This document shows positions 1-59,296 of a stretch of 64,000 nucleotides of DNA, one piece after another. A program made the translations under genes and the position numbers. Source of the DNA: a virus. The notes under the pieces were generated by a model. The model searched no databases. It saw only the letters and a list, made by a program, of their open reading frames with translations, and was not told the DNA's origin. Numbering within the stretch: the stretch's first letter is position 1; each line of letters opens with the position of its first letter. The stretch spans positions 1-64,000 of IMG/VR virus record IMGVR_UViG_3300034378_000186; one strand, given 5' to 3'.

Positions 1-788
1 AAGACATATAAATTTCGTCTTTACCCAACAAAAGAGCAAGAAGTGCTTTTAAATAAGCATTTTGGACATTCTCGTTGGGTGTATAATCATTTCTTAAATG
101 AACGCAAAGAACAATATCAGGCGGATAAAAAATCTGACAATTATTACAAACAAGCTGCCACACTGACAAAACTTAAAAAAGAAGAGGATACGAAATGGTT
201 AAAAGAAGTTAATTCTCAAACGTTGCAATTTGCTTTACGTTCTTTAGATACAGCTTTTCTAAACTTTTTTAGAGGTAATGCACAATTCCCAAAGTTTAAA
301 TCTCGGAAACATAAAAATACTTTTACTGTTCCCCAATTTGGAACTTTAGTTGACAATAAAATATCAATACCTAAATTCAAAGAAGGTATTAAAGTGAAAT
401 TGCATAGAGAGGTTAAGGGTAAAATTGGTAAAATGAGTATAATCAAAACACCTACTGGAAAATATTTTGTTTCAATTTTAACCGAAGAGCAATATCAGCT
501 TAAAGAAAAGACTGGTGCTGTTTGTGGTGTGGATTTAGGATTGAAAGACTTTGCCATTACTTCTGATGGGATTAAATTCAAAAATAACCGATATACTAAG
601 AAATATGAAAGAGATTTAGCGAAAGCACAAAAACATCTTTCTCGTAAACAAAAAGGTGGCAGTTCGTTTGAAAGACAAAAACGAAAAGTTACCAACATAC
701 ACGAGAAAATATCTAACACAAGACAAGATGTATTGCATAAGGTATCACATCAGCTTGTATCTGACTATGACATAATTGCCTTAGAAGA
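1..788 (+). pseudogene. tnpB: TnpB 5' part (start upstream of window), broken just after RuvC-II Glu
   Basis: KTYKFRLYP, WLKEVNSQTLQ, FPKFKS, GVDLGLKDFAITSDG, ends DIIALE then unrelated sequence. Confidence 0.92.
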
Positions 789-815
789 AAAAGAATTTTC
801 TATATATTTATAGGT

Positions 816-1865
816 ATGAATATAGTTGATAAAAATATAGGCGGTTTGGTTGGCGGATTACTCATTGACAGCAGAGTTGATAATTATTCAATGGATAACC
901 GAAATTATAATTGTACTTGTGAGTGTGGAAACAAGATTGTAAAGTCATTTAACGCTTTAAATTTAGCTATTCGTAGGAAGAGTTATTCTACTTGTGGCTG
1001 TAAGAAGAGTGGTAAAAATATGGTTGATAAATACATTAGCAAACATATTTCCAATGTTAAAATATTAGGAAGAGTTGAAAACTATTCAATTGAAAATCAA
1101 AAGTATGATTGTTTGTGTGATTGTGGTAATAGAACAACAAAAGATTATGCTGTACTCTTTCATTCATTAAAATACGGACATAAAGTAAGTTGTGGTTGTA
1201 TTGTAACTGGTACTTGGAATAAGGGCAACTTTAATGATACATATGCAAAATCTAAAATAGGTGAAAAACACAATGAGTTATCTATAATTGGGATAGAGAA
1301 AAATAACCCACACGGGTATAAAATGATTTGCGATTGCGAGTGTGGAAATATGACGAAACAAATATATGCCGACCTTAAAAGAGGTAAAGTTAAGAGTTGT
1401 GGTTGTTATGGCAAAGAACAACAAAGTAAGTCGGGTTCTAAGTATGGGTTAAATAATGGCACTATAAATTGCTCAAAAAGAAAATGGGGTGTTGAAAAAG
1501 ATGGTAAGTTTATTAGAATGCGTTCTGGTTTTGAAGTTATGTACGCTATGATTCTTGAAAAGGAAAACATAAAATGGGAGTATGAACCCAAAAGATTTAA
1601 ACTTTCAGATGGTTTGAGATATACACCAGACTTTTATTTACCACATCAAGACCTTTGGATTGATGTTAAAGGTCATATAACAGAAAAACATAAAAAGAAA
1701 CATAGGTTATTTAGAGAACTTGGACAGAATCTTAATTTAGTTATGATTGATGAGCTACAAGAAAGATTAGGTATGAGTTACTATATGTTTAAAAAACAAT
1801 GGGATATTAAAGCCGAGTCAGACAATGTGGAAACACCTCGTATGGTAGCTGCGAGTACAGAATAG
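816..1865 (+). CDS. PD-(D/E)XK endonuclease with three CxCxCG...CGC zinc-binding repeats, inserted in tnpB
   Basis: Repeats CTCECGN/CLCDCGN/CDCECGN; C-terminal RSGFE..WEYEP..YTPDFYLP..WIDVKG. Confidence 0.8.
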   Translation: MNIVDKNIGGLVGGLLIDSRVDNYSMDNRNYNCTCECGNKIVKSFNALNLAIRRKSYSTCGCKKSGKNMVDKYISKHISNVKILGRVENYSIENQKYDCLCDCGNRTTKDYAVLFHSLKYGHKVSCGCIVTGTWNKGNFNDTYAKSKIGEKHNELSIIGIEKNNPHGYKMICDCECGNMTKQIYADLKRGKVKSCGCYGKEQQSKSGSKYGLNNGTINCSKRKWGVEKDGKFIRMRSGFEVMYAMILEKENIKWEYEPKRFKLSDGLRYTPDFYLPHQDLWIDVKGHITEKHKKKHRLFRELGQNLNLVMIDELQERLGMSYYMFKKQWDIKAESDNVETPRMVAASTE

Positions 1866-1937
1866 GCGTTCTAATCATTTTAAATGATACTACACAAACA
1901 ACAATTAAAAACAGGCTTTAAAATCTCATTAAATAAA

Positions 1938-2231
1938 AATGTAAAAGGGATGATGAGCAATAGAAAACTATCAAAGCATATTGCAGATGCAAGTTGGGGT
2001 ACATTTGTGAGGTTTTTAGAGTACAAAGCAGATTGGAATGACAAAAGAGTGGTTAAAATAAACCGCTTTTACCCCAGTTCAAAAACGTGTAACGTCTGTG
2101 GGTGGATAAATCAAGACTTAAATCTTTCAGTTCGTGAATGGACTTGCAAAAATGGACATCACTTAGATAGGGATGAAAATGCTGCAAAAAACATTCTAAA
2201 TGAAGGATTAAAGATAATATCGGCTGGAACT
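1938..2231 (+). pseudogene. tnpB: TnpB 3' part (zinc ribbon, RuvC-III)
   Basis: NVKGMM..IADASW..LEYKA..PSSKTCNVCG..WTC..DRDENAAKNI..ISAGT. Confidence 0.92.
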
Positions 2232-2265
2232 TTACAAACTAAATAATATTCCGTATATTTGAACT

Positions 2266-2850
2266 ATGAATACGAATACACAGAAATATAAAGTTTGTTA
2301 TAAATGTAGAAAGAAATTACCGCTTACAAGTGAGTATTTTTCAAAGCAGAAAAAATCCTCTGATGGTTTTGATGGTAGATGCAAGTCTTGTGTAAACTTA
2401 ATATCTAAGAAGTATCGTAAAGAAAAAGGTGAACAATATAGGATTGATAACATTACTAAGGCTAAGGAGCAACAACAAAAAAGAATAGCAAAAAGACAAT
2501 GTAGGCACTGCTCAACTAATAGACTATCAAATAGCGATACACTATGTGAAAAACATTGGTTTCAATACGCTTCTAAACGTCATCTTGGGACAATGAAAAG
2601 AGGGGGTGAACTGAAAGCATTATTGGAAAGGCAGAATTATAAATGTGCTTATACAGGATTGATTTTAACACCTGCATTAGATGCAGGCGTTGACCATATT
2701 ATTGCTCTTTCAAATGATGCGGGGCAACATAATAAAATAGAAAATCTTCAATGGGTACACTCTGAAATAAACAGAATGAAGAATAACCATACAGAAGAAG
2801 ATTTTTTGAAATACATTAAACTAATCTATGAAAATAGATTGAGTGGGTAG
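2266..2850 (+). CDS. HNH endonuclease with N-terminal CxxC zinc motifs
   Basis: CYKC..CKSC; QNYKCAYTG..VDHIIA..NLQWVHSEINRMKNN. Confidence 0.85.
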   Translation: MNTNTQKYKVCYKCRKKLPLTSEYFSKQKKSSDGFDGRCKSCVNLISKKYRKEKGEQYRIDNITKAKEQQQKRIAKRQCRHCSTNRLSNSDTLCEKHWFQYASKRHLGTMKRGGELKALLERQNYKCAYTGLILTPALDAGVDHIIALSNDAGQHNKIENLQWVHSEINRMKNNHTEEDFLKYIKLIYENRLSG

Positions 2851-2975
2851 GGACTATCCACTATACACGGGTGGAGCTATAAATAAGACTTCTTTCGAGA
2901 AGCATAAAGCTGTGAAACCCGAAGCCCGTTTGTCTTTAGTAAATGGGTAGTTCACCGAACTGAGATGAATTTAAT
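2842..2975 (+). ncRNA. omegaRNA (TnpB guide RNA) scaffold plus ~20-nt flank-derived guide
   Basis: 5' hairpin AGTGGGTAG-GGA-CTATCCACT, CGGGT/ACCCG pairing, TTCT-TTCG-AGAA hairpin, RE hairpin, TCAC at 2952-2955. Confidence 0.75.
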
Positions 2976-3057
2976 TAGTAGCATAAATAATAATTAACCA
3001 GCCAACACCGCAATGGATGCTACATGTTGTTAGGTGCTGGCGCAATACTTTAATAAA

Positions 3058-8806: not shown

Positions 8807-9003
8807 TATTTTTGATTATATTTGGAGTAGTTTTATTGGTGGGATTAATTATAAGGGGTTTAAATAGGTTCAGAAAAGATAATCCTGGTTACTTCTGCCC
8901 ATTTTATAAAAATGATGGATGCTTACATGTTGATGGGTATTTATGTGATATAAATGATTGTTCAATTTTAAAAAAATACAGTGATGTTAAAAATTTATTA
9001 TGA
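8800..9003 (+). CDS. small membrane protein with Cys-rich tail
   Basis: N-terminal TM; CPF..C.HVDG..C...C. Confidence 0.6.
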   Translation: MVIFLIIFGVVLLVGLIIRGLNRFRKDNPGYFCPFYKNDGCLHVDGYLCDINDCSILKKYSDVKNLL

Positions 9004-9322
9004 ACGGAGCTATGTTAGAATATAAAGCAAAGTGGAACGGAGTTAATATTCTAAAGATCGGAAGGTTTGAACCCAGCTCGAAGCAATGTTCAAACTGTGG
9101 ATACCTCAATAAAAAATTAACACTAAAAGACCGTAAATGGACTTGTCCTGAATGCGGTTTTGTTCTTAATCGTGATGTTAATGCTTCCATAAATATTAAA
9201 AACTTTGCTTTAAACAACCATTTGTGTACGGAACATACACTTAAAAATCATGGTACGTTGTCTTCGTTGGAAGGAGCTTTGACCCATGAAGCCCACCGAT
9301 CTTTAGTCGGTGGGTAGTTCAC
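9002..9322 (+). mobile_element. tnpB: internally deleted IS200/IS605 element: LE stub, tnpB 3' fragment, omegaRNA, RE
   Basis: TTAT|GAACGGAGC joined to MLEYKA..PSSKQC..NRDVNAS; ends GGGTAGTTCAC. Confidence 0.85.
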
Positions 9323-15763: not shown

Positions 15764-15808
15764 ATTGGTTAAAATGCGAAAAAAAACACATTTTTTTTGA
15801 TTTTTTTT

Positions 15809-15861
15809 ACATATAATTTTTATATATAAGATATTTTCATTATATTTATAGTGGATATTAA
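15809..15861 (+). promoter_or_regulatory. conserved promoter: palindrome plus TATATTTA box
   Basis: ACATATAATTTTTATATATAA identical to 5915; TGGATATTAAT also shared. Confidence 0.75.
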
Positions 15862-15876
15862 TTAAAACACAAACCA

Positions 15877-16035
15877 ATGGAATCAATCATTATTTACCAG
15901 GCAAAACACTTCTTCAGGGGCACACACCTGACAAAGAAGGAATTCATCAAGGTCTTCAGGAAGGTATTTGGTAAAACTATCCTTAGAAAGGATGAGATAA
16001 TCAGTAAAGTTTATCAACCAATAATGGCTATATAA
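15877..16035 (+). CDS. small hypothetical protein (52 aa)
   Basis: ORF directly after promoter. Confidence 0.6.
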   Translation: MESIIIYQAKHFFRGTHLTKKEFIKVFRKVFGKTILRKDEIISKVYQPIMAI

Positions 16036-16037
16036 TC

Positions 16038-16370
16038 ATGGGAAAGATAACTAAACAAAAACAGAAGGAATTTCTTAGGACTAAGCTTGGTTCAAATCCA
16101 AAATGGGCTCTGAGGGGTTTAATGGTAATTTATAATTACCAGACTGAAGATGAGAAAGTATCTGAAACCATTCGTGAATATAATAATGTAGGTTTTACAG
16201 GGGTGGATAGAAATATTCTCACCAGTTTTGCAAACCAATATATGCGCAGGAGATTTCTGTCTGAGAAACAAATGGAACTTCTGTTTAAAAAAATGCCAAA
16301 ATACTGGAAGCAACTTTTGGCTGTATCAGATGAAAATATTCTTAATTCTCAAATCTTAAATACACAGTGA
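16038..16370 (+). CDS. hypothetical phage protein
   Basis: IYNYQTEDE..NNVGF..LSEKQ..KYWKQL. Confidence 0.75.
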   Translation: MGKITKQKQKEFLRTKLGSNPKWALRGLMVIYNYQTEDEKVSETIREYNNVGFTGVDRNILTSFANQYMRRRFLSEKQMELLFKKMPKYWKQLLAVSDENILNSQILNTQ

Positions 16371-16415
16371 ACTACCCACCCACATTCTGATGGGTGGGTT
16401 TTTACGCTCTATTTT
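16367..16415 (-). mobile_element. 49-bp minimal IS200/IS605 derivative (PATE-like)
   Basis: minus strand TTTAT|AAAATAGAGCGTAAAAACCCACCCATCAGAATGTGGGTGGGTAGTTCAC. Confidence 0.85.
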
Positions 16416-16562
16416 ATAAAACTACTACTCTGAGGGAAGGAAGATTCGTTGGAATGCTTTACAAACCCCATGTTTTTAATTAATATCCATTTTATGTGTT
16501 TTAGGCTTGGTCAATTTGATCGGGGTTTTTTTTTATATGTGGATAATTTTTATTACTTTTAT

Positions 16563-16775
16563 AAATTGAGTGTAAAACCAAATTATTTTTAGTGGTTTGG
16601 ATGTAAGCGACAAAAGTAGTATATTTGTATTGTCAGTATAAGACATTAAAACCTCGTAAGGGACTTGCGAGTATACGTATGGAGCGACAGTAAGACTTCT
16701 AACTCTTTGGAGCAGTAAGCAAGTTGCTGTGAAGTACGAAGCACATTCATCACGAAGTGTGGATGTGTAGTTCAC
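16563..16775 (+). mobile_element. 213-bp protein-free IS200/IS605 derivative: LE, promoter, omegaRNA, RE
   Basis: TTTAT|AAATTGAGTGTAAAACC..GGATGTAAGCGAC; TATATTTG 16620; ends TAGTTCAC. Confidence 0.85.
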
Positions 16776-16795
16776 AAAATATATATATTTGGTAA
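16653..16795 (+). ncRNA. stand-alone omegaRNA
   Basis: CTCGTAAG-GGA-CTTGCGAG hairpin; CGTAT/GTACG; AGCGAC/GTTGCT; TAAGAC and GCTGTGAA shared with 2842-2955. Confidence 0.75.
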
Positions 16796-16815
16796 TTAAT
16801 GGAATTTTTTCGCGA

Positions 16816-17313
16816 ATGAATTTTCAGGATGAAATCAGACAAAAAAATCTTGAAAGGGTTAATAGTATTTATTATCAGTTTATAGAAGATGATCTGAAAA
16901 AATCCTTGTCTACTTCTACTACTTTTGGAGAATCAAAAGATATTTTAGGGAAGGATATAATCAAATCTTTAAATTCTGAATTGGAAAATAAAGAAATTGA
17001 TTTGAATGTGGAAAAAAATAAGATCCAGAAATCCATAAATGGAATTGGAATTCTCCCTAATTGTTACCCTGAAAATTATATATCTGAAAACTGGAAGGGT
17101 CAAATTGATGTTCCCTTTAATATGTATTCATATAGTCAAATTTATTCAGAGGGGAATGATAAGGCCAATATGATGAAATCTTTTAATGATTCTTTGAAGA
17201 GTTTTATATCTGATACTATTAACAATAAAAAATTGGAGATTGTAATTAGTCATATCCCGGAGGATAAGAATTATAATTTACCAATGGGATTAGTTAAAAA
17301 ATTAAATCTGTAA
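16816..17313 (+). CDS. putative head-associated protein
   Basis: In head module; LKKS, IIKS, IQKS motifs. Confidence 0.55.
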   Translation: MNFQDEIRQKNLERVNSIYYQFIEDDLKKSLSTSTTFGESKDILGKDIIKSLNSELENKEIDLNVEKNKIQKSINGIGILPNCYPENYISENWKGQIDVPFNMYSYSQIYSEGNDKANMMKSFNDSLKSFISDTINNKKLEIVISHIPEDKNYNLPMGLVKKLNL

Positions 17314-17317
17314 TACC

Positions 17318-20191
17318 ATGATAGAATTAATAAAAAAAGCTATAGGTCCAATTTCTAAACAAGATAAGATTGATGAATATCTTAAATTGGAAAAGGAATT
17401 GGAATTAAATAAAGCTGAAATAGATCAATTGGCTGAAAGGTATAATAGATTTAATAAGGAATATCAGAATGGATTAGAACAAAATGGGGAAGATGAAATT
17501 ATTAAAAGTAAACTTCAAAAAAGACATGATACTTTTCTTTCTGAATATTTAATAGATCTGGGAAAGGTTAAAAAGAAAAAGGAAAAAATTGATAAAATGA
17601 TGGGACGCCTAATCAAAGGTGAATCTGATATTATTAGTGAAATTAAAGAAGAAAGAAGGGAACAGGCCTTTATGAATATTAAAGGAATGTATAAAGGCGG
17701 AAAAATCAGTGCAAGTAAATATAACCAAATATGTAAGGCAATGAATTCAGGGGTTACTATGTATAGTGATGTTCTGGTTTTTAATAATAAGGGTGAACTA
17801 CTGCTACTAAAAAGAAATGAGAATGCTTCTTATGAACCTGGAGTTTATTGTTTGCCTGGTGGTCATGTTGATCCAGGGGAATCACATGAACAGGCTGGTT
17901 ATAGAGAATTGATGGAAGAAACTTATTTAACTCCTGGAGATTTAGATCATATAGGGGAATTGAAAAATAAAGATGTTCATATTTGTTATTACAGATGTGA
18001 TTTATTTGATAATGTGTATGATGCTGGAGATCCAGTAATCACCCTACAACATGACGAACATACTGATTTTGAATGGGTGAATCCTTTTGAATTAAGGGAT
18101 TATAAAATGATCAAAGATTCTCAAAATGTTGTATTTGATATTTTATATCCTCATCATAAGGAGGTTGTTAAAATAACTAAATCTTTCCTTACAGGGGAAG
18201 TTAATGAAGATATTTATTTAAGGACTTTAGAAAAGGCAGGATATAAGGATAAGATTGAGGCAATCAAAAAAATGAAAGATCCTGATAATATTTCAGGAGG
18301 GGTGGCAGATGGTAAAACTATAAAAGATGTAATGGATAAATATAATCTTTCAGAAGATGATGTAAAAAAGATTTGTGAGGAAGGCACCAAACATGAAATG
18401 GAACATACTGATGATGAGAATATAGCAAGGGAGATTGCCAGGGATCATATTTGGGAAGATAAGGACTATTATAAAAAACTAAAAAAAATTGAAAAATCTG
18501 ACAATAATTCTAATCCAATAGAAAATACTGTAAAGGAAAGTTTAAAGGTTTTGGTTGTATGTCACAATCAAGGGGTGATACCTCAATCAGTTTTAGAAAA
18601 GGCAATTCAAAATGCTGATGAGATTTTAAAAAGTAATGATTGGACAATTGAAGAATTGGAAGATCAAATGGAAAAAGAGGGATTGTTTGAAAAAGCAATT
18701 ACTATTCAGGAAGATGACATCATTGAACAGGATTCAGTATATGATGAATTTGATTTATATAAAGCCCTTGATACTACTAAACTTGTTTCAAAAAAGGTTA
18801 ATATCCAAAGGAAAGATGGAACTTCCTATATGGCTATTCGTTGGGTGAATCCTGATACAGGGGAATCTTATAAATTTTATGGAACACCTCCAGATCAGGT
18901 AGAATCTGTGGAACAACTTCAACAATTGATAGATTCAGATATGCCTAATGTCAAGAAATATAAAATGATGATCGATGCAGGTATTTATAATAAACATATG
19001 CTGGCAAGGTTAATTAATACTACTCCTTCTAATGCATATCAATATCTCAAACAATCAGATTTTACAGGGGATCAAATTAAAAAATTTTCAGCAGAAAATA
19101 TGGGAAGTGGTATTGTTCCCCCTGCAGAAATAAATGAAGAAACTGGAGAGATTGAAACAGATCCAGATCTTGCCAGTCAAATTGAACAGGAAATCCAGGC
19201 TTTAATTGAGGCTGATGGTTTGAATTTTGATGATTCAGATCTACATAAAATAAATCCTCAAACAGGTAAAGATGTAGTTGATACTGTAATGGATAAGTTT
19301 GTGGATATGGTTGCTAAAAAAGAAGCAAAACTTGCAATGTTTTATGGTACTGGTGGAGTTGGTAAAACTTATGGGGTGAAACAGGTTCTTACTAATCCTG
19401 AAACAATCAATGGAGATACAGGTGAACCATTTGGTAACAAATTGGTAGAATATGAGGCAGAACTTCAACCAAATGAAGATCAATATGATTTCATTAAAAT
19501 TACCGGAAAAGTTTCTCCTTCTAAACTTTATAAAACATTATATGAACATAATGGGAAACTCCTTATGATTGATGATGCTGATGCAGTACTGGAGGATGGA
19601 ACAGCAATTGATATGTTAAAGGGTGCCACTGATACTACTTTGGAAGAAATTTCATGGGATGGTCAACCTATTAAATTAACTGATGGATCTGGTAATGTTC
19701 CTATTAGGTTTAAATTTACAGGGGGTGTGGTAATCATATCAAATCTTTCAGAAAAGAAATTAAGGGAATATGCTCAACCACTTTTGGAATCTAGGGTACT
19801 TTCCTTGGATGTTTCCAGGACGATGGAAGAAACCATTGATAAACTGGATAGGATTAAAGATAAAATGCCATTTGAGGATCGTGATGGTAATCCAATTGAG
19901 GTATCTCAAAAACATAAAGATGTTGCAATTGAATTCATTAAAAAATATAAGAACCATATGCCTGTTGTTCAGGTAAATGGTAGGACATTAGGAAAACTTG
20001 CTCTGATTCATAAAAGAGAATCAAGGAATTATAAAACTGATGTAGATTTTTATAAATCTTATGCTGCCAGATCTTTAATGAATGTTAAAGATCACCAAAT
20101 TAAGGCATTCCATAAAAACAGATTATTGGATGAGGTTAAACAAAGAAAGCAACAAAAATTATTGGTTGATTCTATAAATAATAAAATGTAA
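17318..20191 (+). CDS. multidomain protein: NUDIX hydrolase, HExEH (DUF5661-like) domain, P-loop AAA ATPase
   Basis: GGHVDPGESHEQAGYRELMEET; HEMEHT..AREIARDH..YYKKL; GTGGVGKT, LLMIDD. Confidence 0.85.
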   Translation: MIELIKKAIGPISKQDKIDEYLKLEKELELNKAEIDQLAERYNRFNKEYQNGLEQNGEDEIIKSKLQKRHDTFLSEYLIDLGKVKKKKEKIDKMMGRLIKGESDIISEIKEERREQAFMNIKGMYKGGKISASKYNQICKAMNSGVTMYSDVLVFNNKGELLLLKRNENASYEPGVYCLPGGHVDPGESHEQAGYRELMEETYLTPGDLDHIGELKNKDVHICYYRCDLFDNVYDAGDPVITLQHDEHTDFEWVNPFELRDYKMIKDSQNVVFDILYPHHKEVVKITKSFLTGEVNEDIYLRTLEKAGYKDKIEAIKKMKDPDNISGGVADGKTIKDVMDKYNLSEDDVKKICEEGTKHEMEHTDDENIAREIARDHIWEDKDYYKKLKKIEKSDNNSNPIENTVKESLKVLVVCHNQGVIPQSVLEKAIQNADEILKSNDWTIEELEDQMEKEGLFEKAITIQEDDIIEQDSVYDEFDLYKALDTTKLVSKKVNIQRKDGTSYMAIRWVNPDTGESYKFYGTPPDQVESVEQLQQLIDSDMPNVKKYKMMIDAGIYNKHMLARLINTTPSNAYQYLKQSDFTGDQIKKFSAENMGSGIVPPAEINEETGEIETDPDLASQIEQEIQALIEADGLNFDDSDLHKINPQTGKDVVDTVMDKFVDMVAKKEAKLAMFYGTGGVGKTYGVKQVLTNPETINGDTGEPFGNKLVEYEAELQPNEDQYDFIKITGKVSPSKLYKTLYEHNGKLLMIDDADAVLEDGTAIDMLKGATDTTLEEISWDGQPIKLTDGSGNVPIRFKFTGGVVIISNLSEKKLREYAQPLLESRVLSLDVSRTMEETIDKLDRIKDKMPFEDRDGNPIEVSQKHKDVAIEFIKKYKNHMPVVQVNGRTLGKLALIHKRESRNYKTDVDFYKSYAARSLMNVKDHQIKAFHKNRLLDEVKQRKQQKLLVDSINNKM

Positions 20192-27375: not shown

Positions 27376-30300
27376 ATGAAAAGAATATTATTTGGTATAT
27401 TGTTGATTCTATTAGGGGTGTTAGTTAATGCCCAAGATCAACCAGTTTTGGCTTTACCAAACAGAGGTGCCCCTTCTAATTCTGATGTGTATTATTTAAG
27501 TAGTGCAGCAGGGACAGATTATAAGATTCAACATTCTGATATCTGGAATGATATTTATCAAAATTATGTTTTGAGATTAACAGATACAGGGGTAATTGAT
27601 ACTTCCTATTATATAATGATAAACAACGGAACTAAAACTTATAAGGTGAAATATAAGGTATTGGTTTCAGATCTTGATACAGTATTGTATGCTTATTTTG
27701 CTGGATATGCTTATTTTGCTGGATATGCTTATAATGTAGATACTGCTCAGGATAATATGTTTGTAAAAGATACAATGTTTATAAATTATGGTAGGTTACT
27801 TGATATTAAAGATTCAATAGATGTTGGATATTATATTGAAAGTGATTTTGTATTAAGTGATAACTTTTTCACAAATGGGGATTTTAAATTTAATGATTCT
27901 TCTTGGTGGAATGGAACAGGGAATCAGGTGTTTAAGATATATGATGAAAGGGCAAATTATTTTCAGGATGGTTCTCAAGGTTTTCAAACAAATCAATTTT
28001 CATTAGTAGATATTGATATAACAAAAGAACATTATTTTAGTTTTGAAATGGGTGGGGTTTCAAATGATCCTTTGACTTTACAATTTTTGGATAAAGATAA
28101 CAATGTTTTATTTACTAAAGTTATTCCTACTGCTTATACAGGGATTTTTGATACAATTTTGACTGTGACTGCAGATATTGAAGTAATGAATATTCAAGGG
28201 TTTTCAAGTCCTGGAGCAAGTTTTTGGTTTGATAATTTTTATTTAAGTGAAAGAAGTTATAAACCAATTCTGAAATATGATACAACGGTAGTTTTTGAAA
28301 ATATTCAATTTCAAAATTTACGATTGGATGAATTATTATCAAGTAGGGTTGGATATTTAGGTGATGCAATAGTAAGGGATACGATATTTTCAAAATTAGA
28401 TATTGGAGGATTTAAACCTATTATTCCTTTAAATGAATCAAATTTTGATTCAGTGGGATTGTGGGATGTGGCAGGAGGTATTATAAGTGGGGGTAAATTT
28501 CAGAATGTTGCAAATCCTCTTACTATTTATGCAAATTATCCTGTTGATTTACAAGCAGGAGATTCAGTATATGTTGAAATTTATTTTGATGTAAAAGATG
28601 GATTTGGAGGGGGAAGTATACAAGTAAGTTTTAATACAGATTCTTTAGATACTATTTTTATTCCAGATAATTGGCATACAAATTATAAATGGGTTACAAG
28701 ATTTCATACTTTAAATTCTCCTTCTACTCAATTTTCTTTTTCAGGAGTAAGGGAAGAATCATCTATTATGAATTTAGGTATTGATAGAATTATAGTTGGT
28801 AAATATGAACAGGGTGCTGTTAGAGATTTGGCTTTTGATAAACCAATTGGATTAAAAAATGTTATTGTTCATAGTGATCAAATTTCAAGTATTGAGGCGG
28901 AAAAGGTTGATGGTAAAGTAGATAGTTCTTATTATTCAGATATTGCAGGAGAATTATTAAATGGCCTTAAAGATGATACAGTTTTTACAAATTATATTTT
29001 CCCTTATCAATCTGGAACTTCTTTAGAAATTGGTCATGATACTACTGAAACTGAAGTTTTATTTTCTGATAAATTATTGTTAAAAGGAGATAGAACTTTA
29101 GGAGATACAACAATTCAATTTAAAGTTACTGAAATTGAAACTGATTATACTGGACTAGAGATGTATGGTTGGATCTATGAGAATTGGTCAGGGAATGATG
29201 ATCTTCATAAGTTTTTTGAGTGGGATGGTTATTATCATACTCTGATGATTGGTCACGAGGGGAATGATAGACAGTACTTAGATGTATCGGAGTTTGACTT
29301 ATTGATGGGTGGACAAGATAACTCAATAGATCTTGGTGGATATAGTATGAGCTTAGGTGGTAAATCTAATAATATAACTACTGGATATTATAGAATCTCT
29401 ATAGGTGGTAATAGTAATTCACTTTCAGGATCAACTACTTTTGATGCAGGGGCGATTATAATCGGAGGTTATGATAATGACTTGAATGGGAATTCTGAAT
29501 CTCCAATAATCATAGGTGGTAATACCAATACTTTAGGGAATGGTAATGATTACTCCATGATTTTGAATGGAAAAGATAATACAATCTCTGGAGATTTTAA
29601 TACTTATAATACTATCATATCAGGAGAAGGTAATATACTTAGTGGAACTTATAACATAGTAGGAGGTTATTATAATTCAATATCTGGTAATTATAATATT
29701 TCTACGGGTGGTGGTAATTCACTTGGTAGTAATTGCGACAATTCAATAGCAGTAGGGGAATATGTCAATATTGATAATTCGTATATTGGTAGTGCAGGAT
29801 TTGGAGAAGAGATATTTATAGACGGAGAAGGTAACCTTGTTTCAGGTTACTATAATAGTATTACCGCTGATTATTCAGCCATAGCAGGTGGTAGTGAATC
29901 GAGTATTAGTAGTTTTGGGTCTAATTGTTTTATTGGTGGAGGTTATGATGCCAGTATTCAAGGAGGGTCTAATTGTTTTATTGGTGGAGGTTATGATGCC
30001 AGTATTCAAGGAGGTTCTGGTAATTTTATAATAGGAGGAGAGGAGTTGCAAGTTCAAAATTCTAATAGTAACTATTCAGGAGTGATAGGAGGTTATCAAA
30101 ATGTTTTGGATGATTGTGAGAATTCAATAATACTTGGAGGACAGGGGAATAATATAGGTAATGGTACTTATGAAGCTTTTTTGGGAGGTGGTTATAATAA
30201 TGATATTGGGGGTAGTTCAGGATCTAATAGATCTGTAATACTTGGGGGAGATGAAAATCAATTAAATGGCGGGGGAAAATCTGCTATGATTGCTACCGAA

Positions 30301-34287: not shown

Positions 34288-34487
34288 AACCTCCTAAAAA
34301 AGGAAAAATAGTAACAGGGGTAACGTTATTTAATATTTTACTTATTGCTGCTGTAACGGTGATAGGAGGTTTATTTATATGACGGAGCGTAAAACCAATT
34401 CATCGCTTTAGCGTGGATTGGATGTAAGCGACTTACTCTTCACTTACATTTTGTAATTTTGTAAAAGTTTAGACTATTTAATAATAT

Positions 34488-36395
34488 ATGCTTAAAGGAT
34501 TAAAATATCGCATTTACCCAACCAACTCACAAAAAGAGTTAATAGCCAAACATATTGGTAGTAGTCGTTTTGTGTATAACCTTGCATTAGAAACAAAAAA
34601 TACAGCATATTTAGGTTCTAAACATAACTTTTCTCCTTTTGATTTAATTAAGCAACTATCTGAACTTAAAAAAGAATATCCTTGGCTTAAAGAGGTTAAT
34701 AGCCAATCTTTACAGCAAGCTATCCAAAATATGGATATTGCTTTTAAGAAATTCTTTAAAGGGGCTGGTTTTCCTAAATTCAAGTCAAAGCATAGAGGAA
34801 AACAATCTTTTTCTATTCCACAAAATGTAATAGTAGAAAATGAAAAGTTAATTATTCCTAAATTCAAGGAAGGAATCGAAATTGTTTTGCACAGACCTAT
34901 TGAAGGAACAATCAAAAGTGCAACTATTAGTATTACTTCAACAGGGAAATACTTTGTTTCAATATTAGTTGAAACCAGTAAAGAGAAACCAAGTAAAGCA
35001 CCTATTAAAGAAAAAACAACTATTGGTATTAAGTTAGGCGTATTCCCAAATATGTTTTCTACAAATAATTTTTCCGTTAGCCCATTGGCTAATAGACGAT
35101 GCGGAACTTCCAGTTCCTCTACTGGCAGCAGTGCAACTCTCCCAAACAGCAATGATTTCTCCTGTTTCCTTGCTTCTTTGAATGACTTTCTTCTTGGAAG
35201 CCGCCCAAGCAGCTTGATGCAGTTTGGATATATGCTCGGCACTACGTTTTGCCCCCTTATTGGCTTTAGATATTTTTCTTCTTGTTTCAGCAGAGTGCGT
35301 TTTTCCAAAAAAGCCATTAAATTCTCCAACTCTGGTTTTAGCGCGGTTAGAAATAGCAGCACATTCGGATTGAGTTCTTTTTCTCCCCAAAGTGCTTCTA
35401 TGGGGTACGGTGCAAATATTATAGCCGAATTTCTTTTCGTTACTCCTAAAGAAGGAAATCCAAAAGCATTCTCTATCTTGAAGGCTTGCGTAATCCTCGA
35501 CAACTTCGATGATTTGGAAATCAAAAGCATCCCATCCGTACTTAGCAATAGCCTTGTAAAATGGAAAGTTGCTTTGCAAGTTCCTTTTTCTTCTGTGTTC
35601 AGCAAATCTAAGTTTGATATTGACGGATTGCCCAATGTAGCATTTACCGTTGATTGTGTTTCTGAAGATGTAAACTCCAGATACAGATGGGATGTCTTTG
35701 AACCTTGTTTGCATATTGCAAAGATACAAAAAGAAAACGATTTAAAACCTAATTGTTCAAAAAAAGACTTAGGAATAAAATCGTTTTTAGTTACTTCTGA
35801 TGGAGAAGAAATTGATAATCCCAAATACTTACGAAAAGCACAGAGTAGATTAAAATATGTACAACGTAAATATTCAAATAACAAAGGCAAGCGCACTAAG
35901 AAAAAACTTGCTAAGCTACACGAAAAAGTAGCTAACCAAAGAAAAGATTTTCTACATAAAACCTCAACTAAACTGATTCGTGAGAACCAAACGATAGCCA
36001 TTGAGGATTTAGCGGTTGCTAACATGGTCAAGAACCATAATCTTGCACAGGCAATTAGTGATGTTAGTTGGTCAACCTTTGTTTCAATGTTGGAATACAA
36101 AGCTGATTGGTATGGTAAAAATATCTTACAAATAGGACGTTTTGCACCATCATCAAAGACTTGTTCTTGCTGTGGGTATATCAATAAAGAACTAACACTA
36201 AAAGACCGTGAATGGACTTGTCCTAAGTGTAATTCTGTACTTGACCGTGATGTGAATGCTGCTGTTAACATTAAATCATTTGCATTAAAAAATATCTTAT
36301 CTGGAACGGATAGGAAAACTCGGAACGAACTGCCTCGGTTACGAGGAGTGTTGACTTCCGAAGCCCAACCCATCGGCTCTGCCGTGGGTGGGTAG
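34488..36395 (+). CDS. tnpB: TnpB with a 245-codon in-frame insertion directly before RuvC-I Asp (probably inactive)
   Basis: KTTIGI [735 nt] DLGIKSFLVTSDG; IAIEDL; DRDVNAA. Confidence 0.85.
   Translation: MLKGLKYRIYPTNSQKELIAKHIGSSRFVYNLALETKNTAYLGSKHNFSPFDLIKQLSELKKEYPWLKEVNSQSLQQAIQNMDIAFKKFFKGAGFPKFKSKHRGKQSFSIPQNVIVENEKLIIPKFKEGIEIVLHRPIEGTIKSATISITSTGKYFVSILVETSKEKPSKAPIKEKTTIGIKLGVFPNMFSTNNFSVSPLANRRCGTSSSSTGSSATLPNSNDFSCFLASLNDFLLGSRPSSLMQFGYMLGTTFCPLIGFRYFSSCFSRVRFSKKAIKFSNSGFSAVRNSSTFGLSSFSPQSASMGYGANIIAEFLFVTPKEGNPKAFSILKACVILDNFDDLEIKSIPSVLSNSLVKWKVALQVPFSSVFSKSKFDIDGLPNVAFTVDCVSEDVNSRYRWDVFEPCLHIAKIQKENDLKPNCSKKDLGIKSFLVTSDGEEIDNPKYLRKAQSRLKYVQRKYSNNKGKRTKKKLAKLHEKVANQRKDFLHKTSTKLIRENQTIAIEDLAVANMVKNHNLAQAISDVSWSTFVSMLEYKADWYGKNILQIGRFAPSSKTCSCCGYINKELTLKDREWTCPKCNSVLDRDVNAAVNIKSFALKNILSGTDRKTRNELPRLRGVLTSEAQPIGSAVGG
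35034..35714 (-). CDS. GIY-YIG homing-type endonuclease with NUMOD3/NUMOD1-like DNA-binding motifs
   Basis: SGVYIF.N.INGKCYIGQS.N...RF..H; GYN; FFGKTHSAETRRKIS. Confidence 0.92.
   Translation of the reverse strand: MQTRFKDIPSVSGVYIFRNTINGKCYIGQSVNIKLRFAEHRRKRNLQSNFPFYKAIAKYGWDAFDFQIIEVVEDYASLQDRECFWISFFRSNEKKFGYNICTVPHRSTLGRKRTQSECAAISNRAKTRVGEFNGFFGKTHSAETRRKISKANKGAKRSAEHISKLHQAAWAASKKKVIQRSKETGEIIAVWESCTAASRGTGSSASSISQWANGKIICRKHIWEYA
35719..35726 (-). promoter_or_regulatory. Bacteroidota -7 box for GIY-YIG gene
   Basis: TATCTTTG 4 nt before ATG. Confidence 0.7.
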
Positions 36396-36463
36396 TTCAC
36401 TGAACGTAGGGTTTCAGATGCAGTTTAGGATTAAAAAAAATAAATCTAATTCTTAATTAAAAG

Positions 36464-48184: not shown

Positions 48185-48409
48185 ATGGCACTGGATAAAT
48201 CAAGATTAGCAGATAATATTGAGGATGCAATTACAGATATTGATCCTGCAGAACCTGATTTTCATAGACAAATTGCAGAGGCAATTGCTGATACAGTTAT
48301 TGATGAATTTAAAGATCATGGTGATGTAACTGTTGCTTCAGGAATACCTGTTCAAGTTGGAGCAGCGACAGGAGCAACAACTGCTCCAGGAACAGGAGGT
48401 ATAAGTTGA
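48185..48409 (+). CDS. small baseplate-associated protein
   Basis: MALDK..IAEAIA..GATTAPGTGGIS. Confidence 0.55.
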   Translation: MALDKSRLADNIEDAITDIDPAEPDFHRQIAEAIADTVIDEFKDHGDVTVASGIPVQVGAATGATTAPGTGGIS

Positions 48410-48450
48410 TTTTTATATGTCGTGAATTTTTATTATTTTTATAGATTGTA

Positions 48451-56825: not shown

Positions 56826-57225
56826 TAAATGTTCTAAATGTGGAAATAAAAGGGTAATTGTTAATAAGAAATATTATTTGTGTGATGAATGTAATTACTT
56901 TAGACTCCATGGGGAAACGAAATATGATTCATTTCGTAGAAAACAGAGGGAACAGAATAAGAAGAGGAAGCATAAGAAAACCGGGGAATGGGAATTGTTC
57001 ATGGAAATATGGGCAGAAAGAGAACATAAATGCCATAATTGTGGGATAAGAATTTTTGTACCAAAACCAATAAATTTTATGCATAAGAAAAGTAAAGGGG
57101 CTTCTCCAAGTTTAAGACTGAAAAAAAGTAATATAGAAATTGTTTGTAGGGATTGTCATTATGCGTATGATTTTCAGGGGATGGATAAGTATAACGAAAG
57201 AAAAGATTTATATGACGGAGCGTAA
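56809..57225 (+). CDS. HNH-like zinc-binding nuclease
   Basis: CHNCG..FMH..SKG....LRL...NI...CRDCH. Confidence 0.7.
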   Translation: MEKVIDKCSKCGNKRVIVNKKYYLCDECNYFRLHGETKYDSFRRKQREQNKKRKHKKTGEWELFMEIWAEREHKCHNCGIRIFVPKPINFMHKKSKGASPSLRLKKSNIEIVCRDCHYAYDFQGMDKYNERKDLYDGA

Positions 57226-57262
57226 AACCAATTCATCGCTTTAGCGTGGGTGGGTAATTCAC
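57214..57262 (+). mobile_element. 49-bp minimal derivative of the 34381-36400 element
   Basis: First 36 nt identical to that LE, fused to GTGGGTAATTCAC. Confidence 0.9.
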
Positions 57263-58052: not shown

Positions 58053-59296
58053 ATAAACTACCCATCGGCTAAAGACCGAATGGGTTTTAGACAATAACTA
58101 AGAATGCAAAGAGCAATACATAATCTGTCTTTCAGGCGTGTTTATAGCCGCCCCAAGCAAAGAGATAACCTTAGAAGCATTAAAATCTGCATCAATGGTA
58201 TCTACTTCACAATTTGTGTTGGTGCATTTAAACACCTTGTTGGTTCGTTTTCCAATATGTTTACAAGAGCTGCACGTCTGCGAAGTATAGGCAGGTGGTA
58301 CAACGATGCATTTCACACCATTAAGCAAAGCTTTGTATTCAATATACTGTCTAAGCATAGAGAAATTCCATTTACCAAGTTTAGTCCGAAACTTCTTGTT
58401 TCTTTTTTTACTTGTAAATCGGATTCCAGTAAGGTCTTCAATAGCGATTCCCTTGCCTTGCTCCTTAGCAGATTGAACAATAGATTTTGCGATAGTGTGA
58501 TTAACAATTTGGGCGTGCGTTTTCTCCCTTCCCGAAAGCCTTTTCAAAAGTCGTTTAGAACTTCTTGTGCATTTGGACTGGATAGAACTCCGAACCTTTT
58601 GACGTTTTTCCTTATACCTATTAAGGGAGTTGTTGGTGTGTTTCTCACCATCACTTGTTTCAACAATAGATGTGATGCCGAAATCCACTCCCGTAAATTC
58701 GGAAACATCTTTAATATCTACATCTGGAATATCAACACATTGAAACAAGAAAAATTTCCCTTTCCTGTAGATAAGGTCGGCCTCCCCTTTTATGTATGGA
58801 AGATACTTTTTGTTGAAACATTTAAAAGGTATTTTTTGTCTGCCACCAATACACCATATAGAAACAATGTCTTTTTTGTAGGTAAGAATCCTACTGTCAT
58901 AAGTAATTGCTCCAAAAGGCTTGAAAACACGTTTTTTCTTCCTATCAAGTTTATAAGCATCGTTCACTTTTGCGATGGCACGAACAATTACTTGTGCAGA
59001 AAGATTAGAGTTTTCCTTGATTTGATGGTAAACAAGTTTATGTATTTTGAACTGATTAAAAACTTTGTTTTCCCAAGCTATATTAGAAATAGCGTTGCAA
59101 CTTTTATTCACCGATTTAATGGTGTTAAGGAGCATCTGTTTATGTTCTTCCGTGGGTTCAAGTTTTATTTTAAGAGTCAAAACCATAAGGCAAATATACA
59201 AAATATTTCTATATTTGAAAATTATTATTTAACCAAAGGGAGAGCCACTTTCCTCCCATCGACACTTTGTGACCAATGGGTTTCCGTGGCAGTTTT
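58053..59296 (-). mobile_element. IS200/IS605 tnpB-only element
   Basis: minus strand TTCAT|AAAACTGCCACGGAAACCCAT hairpin; RE CCCATTCGGTCTTTAGCCGATGGGTAGTTTAT. Confidence 0.88.
58098..59186 (-). CDS. tnpB: intact TnpB RNA-guided endonuclease
   Basis: GVDFG, IAIEDL, YTSQTCSSC, DADFNAS; TATATTTG 4 nt before ATG. Confidence 0.92.
   Translation of the reverse strand: MVLTLKIKLEPTEEHKQMLLNTIKSVNKSCNAISNIAWENKVFNQFKIHKLVYHQIKENSNLSAQVIVRAIAKVNDAYKLDRKKKRVFKPFGAITYDSRILTYKKDIVSIWCIGGRQKIPFKCFNKKYLPYIKGEADLIYRKGKFFLFQCVDIPDVDIKDVSEFTGVDFGITSIVETSDGEKHTNNSLNRYKEKRQKVRSSIQSKCTRSSKRLLKRLSGREKTHAQIVNHTIAKSIVQSAKEQGKGIAIEDLTGIRFTSKKRNKKFRTKLGKWNFSMLRQYIEYKALLNGVKCIVVPPAYTSQTCSSCKHIGKRTNKVFKCTNTNCEVDTIDADFNASKVISLLGAAINTPERQIMYCSLHS

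What the first reader, a model, noticed from the sequence alone, without database searches (positions are those of the whole stretch)
16563..16795. Protein-free transposon carrying its own promoter and a complete omegaRNA
Seen: LE hairpin, TATATTTG box (16620), then directly an omegaRNA with compensatory changes relative to 2842-2955 (CGTAT/GTACG versus CGGGT/ACCCG; different 5' stem, same GGA loop), RE and TCAC. No tnpB remnant. It is inserted at the TTTAT of a phage promoter-like box upstream of the head-cargo operon, so its guide (AAAATATATATATTTGGTAA) matches the empty promoter allele. Inference: a guide-only element that borrows TnpB in trans to cut competing empty-site phages, and may also supply transcription to the downstream operon.
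Basis: partly seen in the sequence, partly recalled or inferred. Interest (0 to 1): 0.8.

Follow-up and report, generated by a model that had tools for sequence, protein, structure and literature searches.

The report
Gene-less TnpB guide-RNA mini-transposon in phage
The flagged 213 bases are a real protein-free miniature IS200/IS605 transposon in a phage that keeps both transposon ends, the old tnpB promoter and a complete TnpB guide-RNA scaffold; this kind of element is already described, so it is a well-documented new example, not a new system.

Summary
Window 16563-16775 is an ORF-less IS200/IS605-type element. It has the target motif TTTAT (16558-16562), a left-end hairpin, a Bacteroidota-type promoter (TTTG-N20-TATATTTG), a 146-nt omegaRNA scaffold, and a right end reading ...GTAGTTCAC. 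The next 20 nt would be the guide.

It is one of about 50 distinct copies in metagenomes, IMG/VR phages and a few Bacteroidota genomes. All sit after TTTAT and have different flanks. On a tree they form one group nested inside the omegaRNAs of a phage-borne TnpB family, to which the window's tnpB at 1-2955 belongs. The RNA structure is strongly supported by covariation.

The "trans guide" reading is the accepted hypothesis for such elements (PATEs with omegaRNAs, standalone omegaRNAs), but it is untested here. Both cognate tnpB genes in this phage record are broken by endonuclease gene cassettes. No TnpA was found, no empty-site relative was found, and no RNA run was listed.

The phage promoter just upstream is intact, so the element's own promoter need not drive the operon.

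This scan had already found and followed up the same family in other phage genomes, with the same verdict. Verdict: new member of a known kind, moderate-to-low interest.

The parts
16530..16561 (+). Phage promoter-like box TTTTTATAT-N15-TACTTTTA. Its last bases overlap the TAM, and the insertion leaves it intact.
   Evidence: the pattern TTTTTAT[AT][ATG]-N13-17-TAnnTTT[GA] occurs 9 times in the genome against 0.22 in shuffles, mostly just upstream of ORF starts. (family D4): 84% identity to 48405-48448, which lies directly before an ATG; a terminator-like hairpin at 16506-16533 lies just upstream.
16558..16562 (+). Transposon-adjacent motif (TAM / insertion target) TTTAT.
   Evidence: of 35 distinct copies with a recognisable left end, 30 have TTTAT within 22 nt upstream of it, each in a different upstream flank.
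16563..16611 (+). Left end (LE): 5' segment, imperfect hairpin 16578-16600 and conserved core GGATGTAAGCGAC (16599-16611).
   Evidence: the same motif order (GTAAAACC, hairpin, GGATGTAAGCGAC) is found in the LE of tnpB#3 (34379-34432) and in dozens of family copies. The hairpin arms covary between copies.
16596..16627 (+). Internal promoter-like site: TTTG (16596-99), 20-nt spacer, TATATTTG (16620-27). This is the former tnpB promoter.
   Evidence: Sequence. TAnnTTTG is kept in 37 of 49 distinct copies, and 31 also have TTG/TTTG 15-25 nt upstream of it; intact tnpB#1-type elements carry ...AGTATATTTGTAAAC directly before the tnpB start. The match to the Bacteroidota -33/-7 consensus comes from general knowledge. 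No transcription data are available.
16630..16775 (+). OmegaRNA scaffold: small 5' hairpin 16631-16645; stem 1 16653-16671 (GGA loop); stem 2 16676-80 / 16734-38 enclosing two inner helices; candidate pseudoknot GUGAA 16729-33 with UUCAC 16771-75; right-end (RE) hairpin about 16741-16769; RE terminus GTAGTTCAC at 16775.
   Evidence: 160 bits with no non-standard pair; covariation; full-length collinearity with omegaRNAs beside tnpB genes.
16776..16795 (+). Flank that would serve as the guide (AAAATATATATATTTGGTAA). It contains a second -7-like box TATATTTG (16784-91), 25 nt before the ATG at 16816.
   Evidence: no TTTAT plus guide-like target anywhere else in the 80.8-kb record.
2824..2955 (+). 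Closest omegaRNA in the window. It belongs to the broken tnpB#1 element (1-2955).
   Evidence: 82 bits over the full model; it groups with the mini clade (SH-aLRT 95 for the set of 38).
1..2246 (+). tnpB#1, the cognate type. It is split after ...IALE by a 1.15-kb cassette (ORF 816-1865) and is followed by an HNH gene (2266-2850) inserted in the omegaRNA stem-1 loop.
   Evidence: the two parts align to residues 16-278 and 279-377 of the intact relative in L130; no Rfam intron family in the inserts.
34379..36400 (+). tnpB#3 element. It has the same LE type and TAM as the mini element but a different omegaRNA type, and is interrupted by an antisense GIY-YIG gene (35034-35729).
   Evidence: only 20 bits to the mini model.

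Best explanation
Window 16563-16775 is a 213-bp non-autonomous, ORF-less derivative of a TnpB-carrying IS200/IS605-family insertion sequence. Such elements are called PATEs or 'standalone omegaRNA' elements.

**Origin.** It arose by loss of almost the whole tnpB reading frame. What remains is the left end, the former tnpB promoter, and the 3' ~146 nt that encode the omegaRNA scaffold and the right end.

**Shown here**
- The anatomy of the element.
- The TTTAT target motif.
- Membership of a family of about 50 copies that forms one clade nested in the omegaRNAs of a phage-borne TnpB family.
- An RNA structure kept by compensatory changes.

**Inferred**
1. The internal TTTG-N20-TATATTTG site, and also the intact phage promoter just upstream, transcribe the scaffold together with the downstream flank.
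2. A compatible TnpB made elsewhere binds and trims this RNA. Candidates are the host, a co-infecting phage, or the missing 27% of this genome.
3. The complex cuts DNA carrying TTTAT followed by AAAATATATATATTTG..., which is the same phage locus without the insertion.
4. Recombinational repair from an occupied copy then restores or spreads the element. The phage encodes RecA.
5. Movement to new TTTAT sites needs a Y1 TnpA supplied in trans.

**My odds.** Identity as such an element is about 0.95. That it currently works as a trans guide in this phage is about 0.4.
For: **Anatomy and homology of the ends:**

**Family size and independent insertions**
- The stem-1 20-mer hits 52 metagenome, 7 genome and several IMG/VR loci.
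- About 49 copies are distinct, with different flanks and guides.
- No true hit has a tnpB ORF upstream.

**RNA structure**
- 17-18 pairs show compensatory changes. 95.6% of cells are paired against 86.4% in shuffles, and 0 of 500 shuffles reach that value.
- The same helices covary in omegaRNAs linked to tnpB genes.
- Compared with its nearest relatives (L045, L069), mini1's two stem substitutions are both compensated: CGTGT/GCACG to CGTAT/GTACG, and GCCCAT/ATGGGT to GCACAT/ATGTGT.

**Completeness of the scaffold:** the model matches omegaRNAs beside 48 intact tnpB#1-type genes over all 143 positions.

**Single origin:** the mini elements form one group (SH-aLRT 88). Holding them together as one clade is not rejected (AU p 0.49).

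**Promoter:** the -7 box is kept in 37 of 49 copies and corresponds to the tnpB promoter of full elements.

**Possible partners:** cognate TnpB genes (68-83% identical) are common in phage contigs and occur in Bacteroidota genomes.

**Repair capacity:** the phage encodes RecA and a metallophosphatase of the Mre11/SbcD kind.

Against: - No intact cognate TnpB lies in the 80.8 kb held. tnpB#1 and tnpB#3 are split by endonuclease cassettes and tnpB#2 is a 3' fragment. The only intact tnpB (58098-59201, minus strand) is divergent, and its omegaRNA region scores only 17.5 bits.
- No Y1 TnpA is present in the record.
- A complete 114-kb phage carries a copy with only a 36%-identical TnpB whose omegaRNA does not match the model.
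- Three of four bacterial genomes with copies show only fragmentary TnpB. Their copies have degraded -7 boxes.
- The left end of mini1 has about 7 uncompensated changes in 49 nt, so it may no longer be mobile.
- No empty-site relative was found.
Confidence: 0.72

Rival explanations
1. Inert relic. The element is a dead or dying MITE that spread recently using TnpA supplied in trans. Its omegaRNA part is conserved only because the copies are young, and it has no partner nuclease and no activity in this phage.
For: - No intact cognate TnpB and no TnpA in the record.
- Mini copies occur without a cognate TnpB in a complete phage and in three bacterial genomes.
- The left end of mini1 is decayed.
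- Copies in bacterial chromosomes have degraded promoters.
Against: - There are many compensatory changes within the ORF-less clade itself, in stems not needed for transposition (stem 2 and the inner helices).
- The promoter box is kept in 76% of copies.
- In mini1 the RNA stems stayed paired while the left end drifted.
Confidence: 0.25
2. Regulatory exaptation. The element is kept because its outward-reading promoter, or its RNA structure in the 5' leader, now controls the downstream operon (16816 onward), independently of any nuclease.
For: - It lies between a phage promoter-like box and the operon's first ATG, in the same orientation, with no terminator after the right end.
- An upstream terminator-like hairpin (16506-16533) means the operon depends on promoters located here.
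Against: - The phage promoter box 16530-16561 is intact and a second -7-like box follows the right end, so an extra promoter is not obviously needed.
- Across the family only about half of the copies have a same-strand ORF starting within 150 nt downstream. This is no clear orientation rule (a crude test).
Confidence: 0.1
3. The element encodes a small protein on the minus strand (open frame 16533-16775, 80 codons).
For: A stop-free minus-strand stretch of 55-77 codons is seen in most copies.
Against: - No Pfam match.
- The frame begins exactly at the right-end terminus and has no conserved start.
- Copies differ by 1-nt and 23-nt indels that shift the frame.
- Substitutions follow RNA pairing.
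- In the second mini element of this genome a reading frame entering at the same right-end sequence (GTGAAC...) stops after 7 codons.
Confidence: 0.02

Closest known systems
PATE-like minimal IS200/IS605 elements that encode omegaRNAs (Geobacillus stearothermophilus ISGst families; Meers et al. 2023, PMC10055086)
   Same: No protein gene. LE and RE with subterminal hairpins shared with TnpB-carrying relatives. A conserved TAM. An omegaRNA at the right end whose guide is the flank. Presumed dependence on TnpA and TnpB supplied in trans.
   Different: A different TnpB lineage and TAM (TTTAT). Found in a Bacteroidota-type phage. The former tnpB promoter is retained directly in front of the scaffold. 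The copies form one widely dispersed clade rather than a few copies in one genome.
Standalone omegaRNAs of OMEGA systems (Altae-Tran et al. 2021, as summarised in PMC10691335)
   Same: Mobilised omegaRNA loci that lack an effector and a transposase. Reported to work in trans with compatible effectors of the same genome.
   Different: Here trans activity is untested, and the compatible effector genes in the same genome are broken. I could not read the 2021 paper itself.
TnpB-only IS200/IS605 elements (IS1341-type) with an omegaRNA overlapping the tnpB 3' end, e.g. ISDra2 TnpB
   Same: The scaffold ends at the RE boundary. A hairpin derived from the RE. A candidate pseudoknot next to the guide. 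The TAM lies 5' of the target.
   Different: The nuclease gene is deleted. Only the last ~135 nt of its frame survive, as RNA gene.
Homing of mobile elements between co-infecting phages ('transposon non-restorative homing', review PMC13565253; T4 seg/mob intronless homing)
   Different: No experimental or comparative evidence for it here. The nuclease would have to come from elsewhere.

Membership tests
Non-autonomous IS200/IS605 element (PATE) | Subterminal imperfect palindromes at both ends, homologous to those of full-length elements | tested here: met
   The LE motif order is as in tnpB#3 and L016. The RE hairpin plus GTAGTTCAC is as in tnpB#1, #2 and #3.
Non-autonomous IS200/IS605 element (PATE) | Insertion 3' of a fixed short motif, with no terminal inverted repeats and no target-site duplication | tested here: met
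   TTTAT precedes the LE in 30 of 35 copies with a recognisable LE. The flanks of mini1 (...ACTTTTAT | AAAATATA...) show no duplication.
Non-autonomous IS200/IS605 element (PATE) | No protein-coding gene | tested here: met
   only a non-conserved antisense open frame with no family match.
Non-autonomous IS200/IS605 element (PATE) | Several copies at different sites (evidence of past mobility) | tested here: met
   About 49 distinct copies with different flanks. A second mini element with the same layout and two 49-51-nt LE-RE fusion elements lie in the same genome.
Non-autonomous IS200/IS605 element (PATE) | Mobilised by a Y1 (HUH) TnpA in trans | not testable with these tools
   No Y1_Tnp match in the 80.8-kb record. 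Matches exist in 3 of 4 bacterial genomes that hold copies.
TnpB omegaRNA (standalone) | Homologous and collinear with omegaRNAs encoded at the 3' end of tnpB genes | tested here: met
   full-model matches of 50-99 bits beside 48 intact tnpB#1-type genes; the mini elements are nested among them.
TnpB omegaRNA (standalone) | Conserved secondary structure supported by covariation | tested here: met
   Stem 1 is invariant in alignment A3 only because it was the search pattern. It covaries in alignment A4 and in L043.
TnpB omegaRNA (standalone) | Transcribed, with the 3' guide taken from the flank | not testable with these tools
   Only promoter-like motifs are available. No RNA holder was listed.
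TnpB omegaRNA (standalone) | A compatible effector in the same genome | tested here: not met
   The cognate tnpB#1 and tnpB#3 are interrupted and tnpB#2 is truncated. The record is only 73% complete, so absence is not proven.
TnpB omegaRNA (standalone) | Loads a TnpB and directs cleavage of TAM plus target | not testable with these tools
   Needs an experiment.
Bacteroidota sigma-A type promoter | -33 TTTG and -7 TAnnTTTG about 19-21 nt apart (consensus from general knowledge of Bacteroides/Flavobacterium promoters) | tested here: inconclusive
   The motif is present with a 20-nt spacer and is conserved in most copies. In the whole genome TAnnTTTG is only about 1.9-fold enriched outside ORFs. 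No start-site data are available.

The most novel reading that the evidence does not exclude
The ORF-less clade may be an independently evolving 'guide-only' hyperparasite. It has a single origin and about 50 or more insertions, mostly on phage-like contigs. Its own promoter and RNA structure appear to be under selection, and it often sits in genomes with no matching nuclease. On this reading it would exploit a TnpB made by the host or by a co-infecting phage to drive its own locus, and the linked phage genes, into empty-site phages during mixed infection.
Probability: 0.2. Interest if true: 0.6.

Novelty: new member of a known kind. Interest (0 to 1): 0.3.

Why it matters
It is a clean, well-bounded example, with a covariance model and about 50 relatives, of a TnpB guide RNA that lives on without its nuclease in phage genomes.

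If the RNA is made and loaded by a foreign TnpB, such elements would be minimal RNA-only homing drives between phages. The family would also offer natural scaffold variants for a compact TnpB lineage that uses a TTTAT TAM.

As it stands, it mainly extends known PATE and standalone-omegaRNA biology to Bacteroidota phages.

Tried and rejected
- **Rfam:** no family at gathering score in the window. Only a chance miRNA match at E 4.7 around the element. Nothing in 700-3000 at E <= 1, so there is no support for self-splicing introns in tnpB#1.
- **Related phages:** blastn of 15800-17800 against GenBank phages gave no match. Relatives of the downstream 957-aa protein gave one distant locus, of no use for an empty-site comparison.
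- **Empty site:** an exact search for the reconstructed empty site in IMG/VR gave 0 hits.
- **Sequencing runs:** no RNA holder was listed. Only five DNA runs held a 0.04 share of the words, and I did not lay them.
- **Orientation:** I tested whether copies prefer to face a downstream gene. 23 of 44 do by a crude ORF test, which is no clear rule.
- **Minus-strand ORF:** rejected.
- **Apparent full-length parent:** the case in L046/L064 (LE core 1843 nt upstream) was a chance match. These loci are mini elements too.
- **Chance pattern hits:** three hits (L047, L049, L055) are chance matches inside a coding region.
- **Literature:** the 2021 OMEGA paper could not be read, so it is cited only through PMC10691335.
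- **TnpA DNA guides:** I looked for DNA 'guide' pairings for TnpA (GTAAA with TTTAT, GTGAA with TTCAC) by eye only. I make no claim from this.

Full report
**Setting.** The window is bases 1-64000 of an 80,792-bp IMG/VR virus record, classed as linear and 73% complete. It is a tailed-phage genome with mostly plus-strand genes. Just upstream of the finding lie a Mu-F-like head protein gene and others, and a 957-aa NUDIX-containing protein gene lies downstream.

Read directly, the sequence shows these features:
- The target motif TTTAT (16558-62).
- A left end (16563-16611) with the hairpin CCAAATTA/TGGTTTGG and the core GGATGTAAGCGAC.
- TTTG (16596-99), 20 nt, then TATATTTG (16620-27).
- A small hairpin (16631-45).
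- Stem 1, CUCGUAAG-GGA-CUUGCGAG (16653-71).
- Stem 2, CGUAU...GUACG (16676-80 / 16734-38), enclosing two inner helices.
- The right-end hairpin and ...GTAGTTCAC, ending at 16775.
- The flank AAAATATATATATTTGGTAA.

The fold has the same architecture as 2810-2975 next to tnpB#1, with different stem sequences.

**Other elements of the same transposon group in this genome.**
- tnpB#1 (1-2955).
- A 3' fragment, tnpB#2 (about 9000-9322).
- tnpB#3 (34379-36400). Its left end has the same motif order and TAM as the mini element.
- A second ORF-less element with the same layout of promoter plus scaffold, outside the window at genome 72040-72253 on the minus strand. It sits in the last codons of a metallophosphatase gene next to recA.
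- Two 49-51-nt elements that are a left-end start fused to a right-end terminus around a single hairpin, at 16367-16415 (minus strand) and 57212-57262.
- No Y1 TnpA gene.

**It is one copy of a large family.**
- A left-end 15-mer, a 20-mer from the 5' hairpin and the stem-1 20-mer recover the same architecture in IMG/VR contigs, in 52 metagenome loci and in 7 loci of four Bacteroidota genomes: a Chitinophagaceae MAG, Algoriphagus sp. MSM8 (three loci), a Bacteroidales MAG and Phaeodactylibacter luteus.
- After removing three chance hits, no copy has a tnpB ORF upstream. An apparent full-length case was a chance match.
- About 49 copies are distinct. 35 have a recognisable left end, 30 of those with TTTAT just before it. 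37 keep a TAnnTTTG box within 45 nt of stem 1.
- The 3' flanks, which are the guides, all differ. These are therefore independent insertions.

**The RNA structure is real and complete.**
- RNAalifold on 29 copies predicts 33 pairs, 17 of them with compensatory changes.
- With a candidate 5-bp pseudoknot added (GUGAA with the terminal UUCAC), 95.6% of cells pair. The figure is 86.4% in column shuffles (0 of 500 shuffles reach the observed value) and 33-43% when the partners are slid.
- Stem 1 is invariant in that set only because it was the search pattern. It covaries in L043 and in the tnpB-linked set.
- A covariance model built from the mini elements matches the omegaRNA beside tnpB#1 over the whole model (82 bits).
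- It also matches, over all 143 positions, the omegaRNAs at the 3' end of 48 uninterrupted tnpB#1-type genes from IMG/VR (50-99 bits).
- In those relatives the tnpB frame runs through the scaffold to the right end. The mini element therefore keeps the last ~135 nt of tnpB as an RNA gene and nothing else of it.
- The box AGTATATTTG that precedes the scaffold matches the box directly before the tnpB start in full elements. The 'own promoter' is therefore the old tnpB promoter, brought next to the omegaRNA by the deletion.

**Evolution.**
- On a tree of 78 scaffolds all mini elements fall in one group (SH-aLRT 88). The only two rows in that group labelled otherwise are a mini element carrying an HNH gene and a long-branch second hit in L180.
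- Holding the mini elements together as one clade is not rejected (AU p 0.49).
- The group is nested among tnpB#1-type omegaRNAs, with the window's tnpB#1 scaffold close by. The alignment is short (133 columns), so this is consistent with a single origin but does not prove it.
- The nearest relative of mini1 is L045 (95% identical).
- Relative to L045 and L069, mini1's two stem substitutions are both compensated. Its left end carries about 7 uncompensated changes in 49 nt, mostly C to T.

**Insertion site.**
- The genome has a promoter-like motif family, TTTTTATAT-N15-TAnnTTT(G/A). It occurs 9 times against 0.22 expected, mostly right before ORF starts (repeat families D4, D5 and D10).
- One member is 16530-16561. 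Its last bases are the TAM, so the element landed immediately after an intact -7-like box. That position is roughly at the transcription start and 254 nt before the ATG at 16816.
- A terminator-like hairpin (16506-33) precedes the box.
- A second -7-like box (16784-91) lies in the guide segment. The reconstructed empty site would also give TTTTTATTA-N15-TATATTTG.
However, the upstream promoter is not destroyed, and read-through from it could itself produce the omegaRNA precursor.

**Is there a nuclease to borrow?**
- In this record tnpB#1 is cut after ...IALE by a 1.15-kb cassette with an endonuclease-I-like ORF. Its two parts align to residues 16-278 and 279-377 of an intact relative.
- An HNH gene sits in the stem-1 loop of its omegaRNA.
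- tnpB#3 carries an antisense GIY-YIG gene.
- Rfam finds no intron in these inserts.
- The one intact tnpB (58098-59201, minus strand) is divergent.
- A 100%-complete 114-kb phage with a family copy has only a 36%-identical TnpB, and its 3' region does not match the model.
- Three of four bacterial genomes with copies show only TnpB fragments.
- On the other side, cognate TnpB genes are abundant in phage contigs (66 loci) and occur in Algoriphagus, Flavobacteriales, Chitinophagales and others. A partner from the host or from a co-infecting phage is therefore plausible.
- No TTTAT plus guide target exists elsewhere in the genome, so there is no self-targeting.

**Comparison with what is known.**
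- Meers et al. describe PATE-like elements without genes in G. stearothermophilus. [quoted passage not shown] - A 2026 review lists homing of transposons into co-infecting phages as a category (PMC13565253).
- The present element passes every sequence-level test for such an element. It fails only 'compatible effector in the same genome', in an incomplete record.
- Earlier follow-ups in this scan reached the same verdict for look-alike copies in other phage genomes.

**Verdict.** The finding is real and nicely complete, and it belongs to a large, probably single-origin, promoter-bearing guide-only family. In kind, however, it is already known. Function in trans, competition between phages and promoter donation remain inferences.

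Noticed in passing
window 16367-16415 (minus strand), TAM at 16416-16420: A 49-nt micro element: TTTAT, then a left-end start (AAAATAGAGCGTAAAA), one hairpin and the right-end terminus TAGTTCAC. Its hairpin plus T-run looks like the terminator of ORF 16038-16370, and the complement of its right end (GTGAAC) supplies that ORF's TGA stop.
   Followed up: partly
window 57212-57262 (plus strand), TAM 57207-57211: A 51-nt micro element of the same LE-RE fusion type. It is 96% identical over 49 nt to the left end of the tnpB#3 element (34373-34421).
   Followed up: partly
genome 72040-72253 minus strand (outside the window; L002:1336-1549): A second ORF-less element with the same layout of promoter plus scaffold (TTTAT, same LE, TATATTTG, shorter scaffold, RE hairpin like tnpB#3). 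It scores only 20 bits to the mini1 model, so it is probably a separate lineage. It sits antisense in the last ~12 codons of a calcineurin-like phosphoesterase (Mre11/SbcD-like) gene, just before a phage recA.
   Followed up: partly
window 2247-2862 and L034:3391-4240 (minus strand): The same HNH gene (82% identical protein) is inserted in the stem-1 loop of an omegaRNA twice: here behind tnpB#1, and in another phage inside a gene-less mini element. In both cases the cassette ends with its own replacement stem 1 (GUGGGUAG-GGA-CUAUCCAC), so a complete scaffold follows the HNH stop codon. It looks like a homing endonuclease cassette that targets omegaRNA DNA.
   Followed up: partly
window 789-1937 and 35031-35765: tnpB#1 is split exactly after ...IALE by a cassette with an endonuclease-I-like ORF (816-1865). 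tnpB#3 is interrupted by an antisense GIY-YIG/NUMOD3 gene, yet its plus-strand frame stays open for 635 codons (34488-36395). No Rfam intron family matches the tnpB#1 inserts at E <= 1 (700-3000); for the tnpB#3 insert only the window-wide gathering-score scan was run, and it found none.
   Followed up: partly
window 58098-59201 (minus strand): An apparently intact but divergent TnpB (367 aa, TNB domain E 3e-18). Its element boundaries and omegaRNA were not worked out.
   Followed up: no
window 5923, 15817, 16530, 44822, 48410, 56245; genome 64739, 68575, 76477: A phage promoter-like motif family, TTTTTATAT-N15-TAnnTTT(G/A): 9 copies against 0.22 in shuffles, mostly directly before ORF starts.
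   Followed up: partly
L081, L092 versus L088, L045 (metagenome loci): In orthologous loci of related contigs, the 21 nt directly after the right end of the mini element (the guide segment) are inverted between alleles. In L088 the TAM reads TTCAC instead of TTTAT. I have no explanation.
   Followed up: no
L125-L139, L158, L165, L172, L175-L178, L185-L186 (IMG/VR), about 100-180 nt before the tnpB start: Many tnpB#1-type elements do not have the GTAAAACC-hairpin-GGATGTAAGCGAC left end. They carry a different conserved upstream structure instead (...GTGAAAGTTTTTTACCCGAAGACGGAAACTTTTAC...). The same nuclease and omegaRNA therefore seem to ride on two kinds of left end.
   Followed up: no
window 29917-30012: A perfect tandem duplication of a 48-nt unit (family D12).
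   Followed up: no
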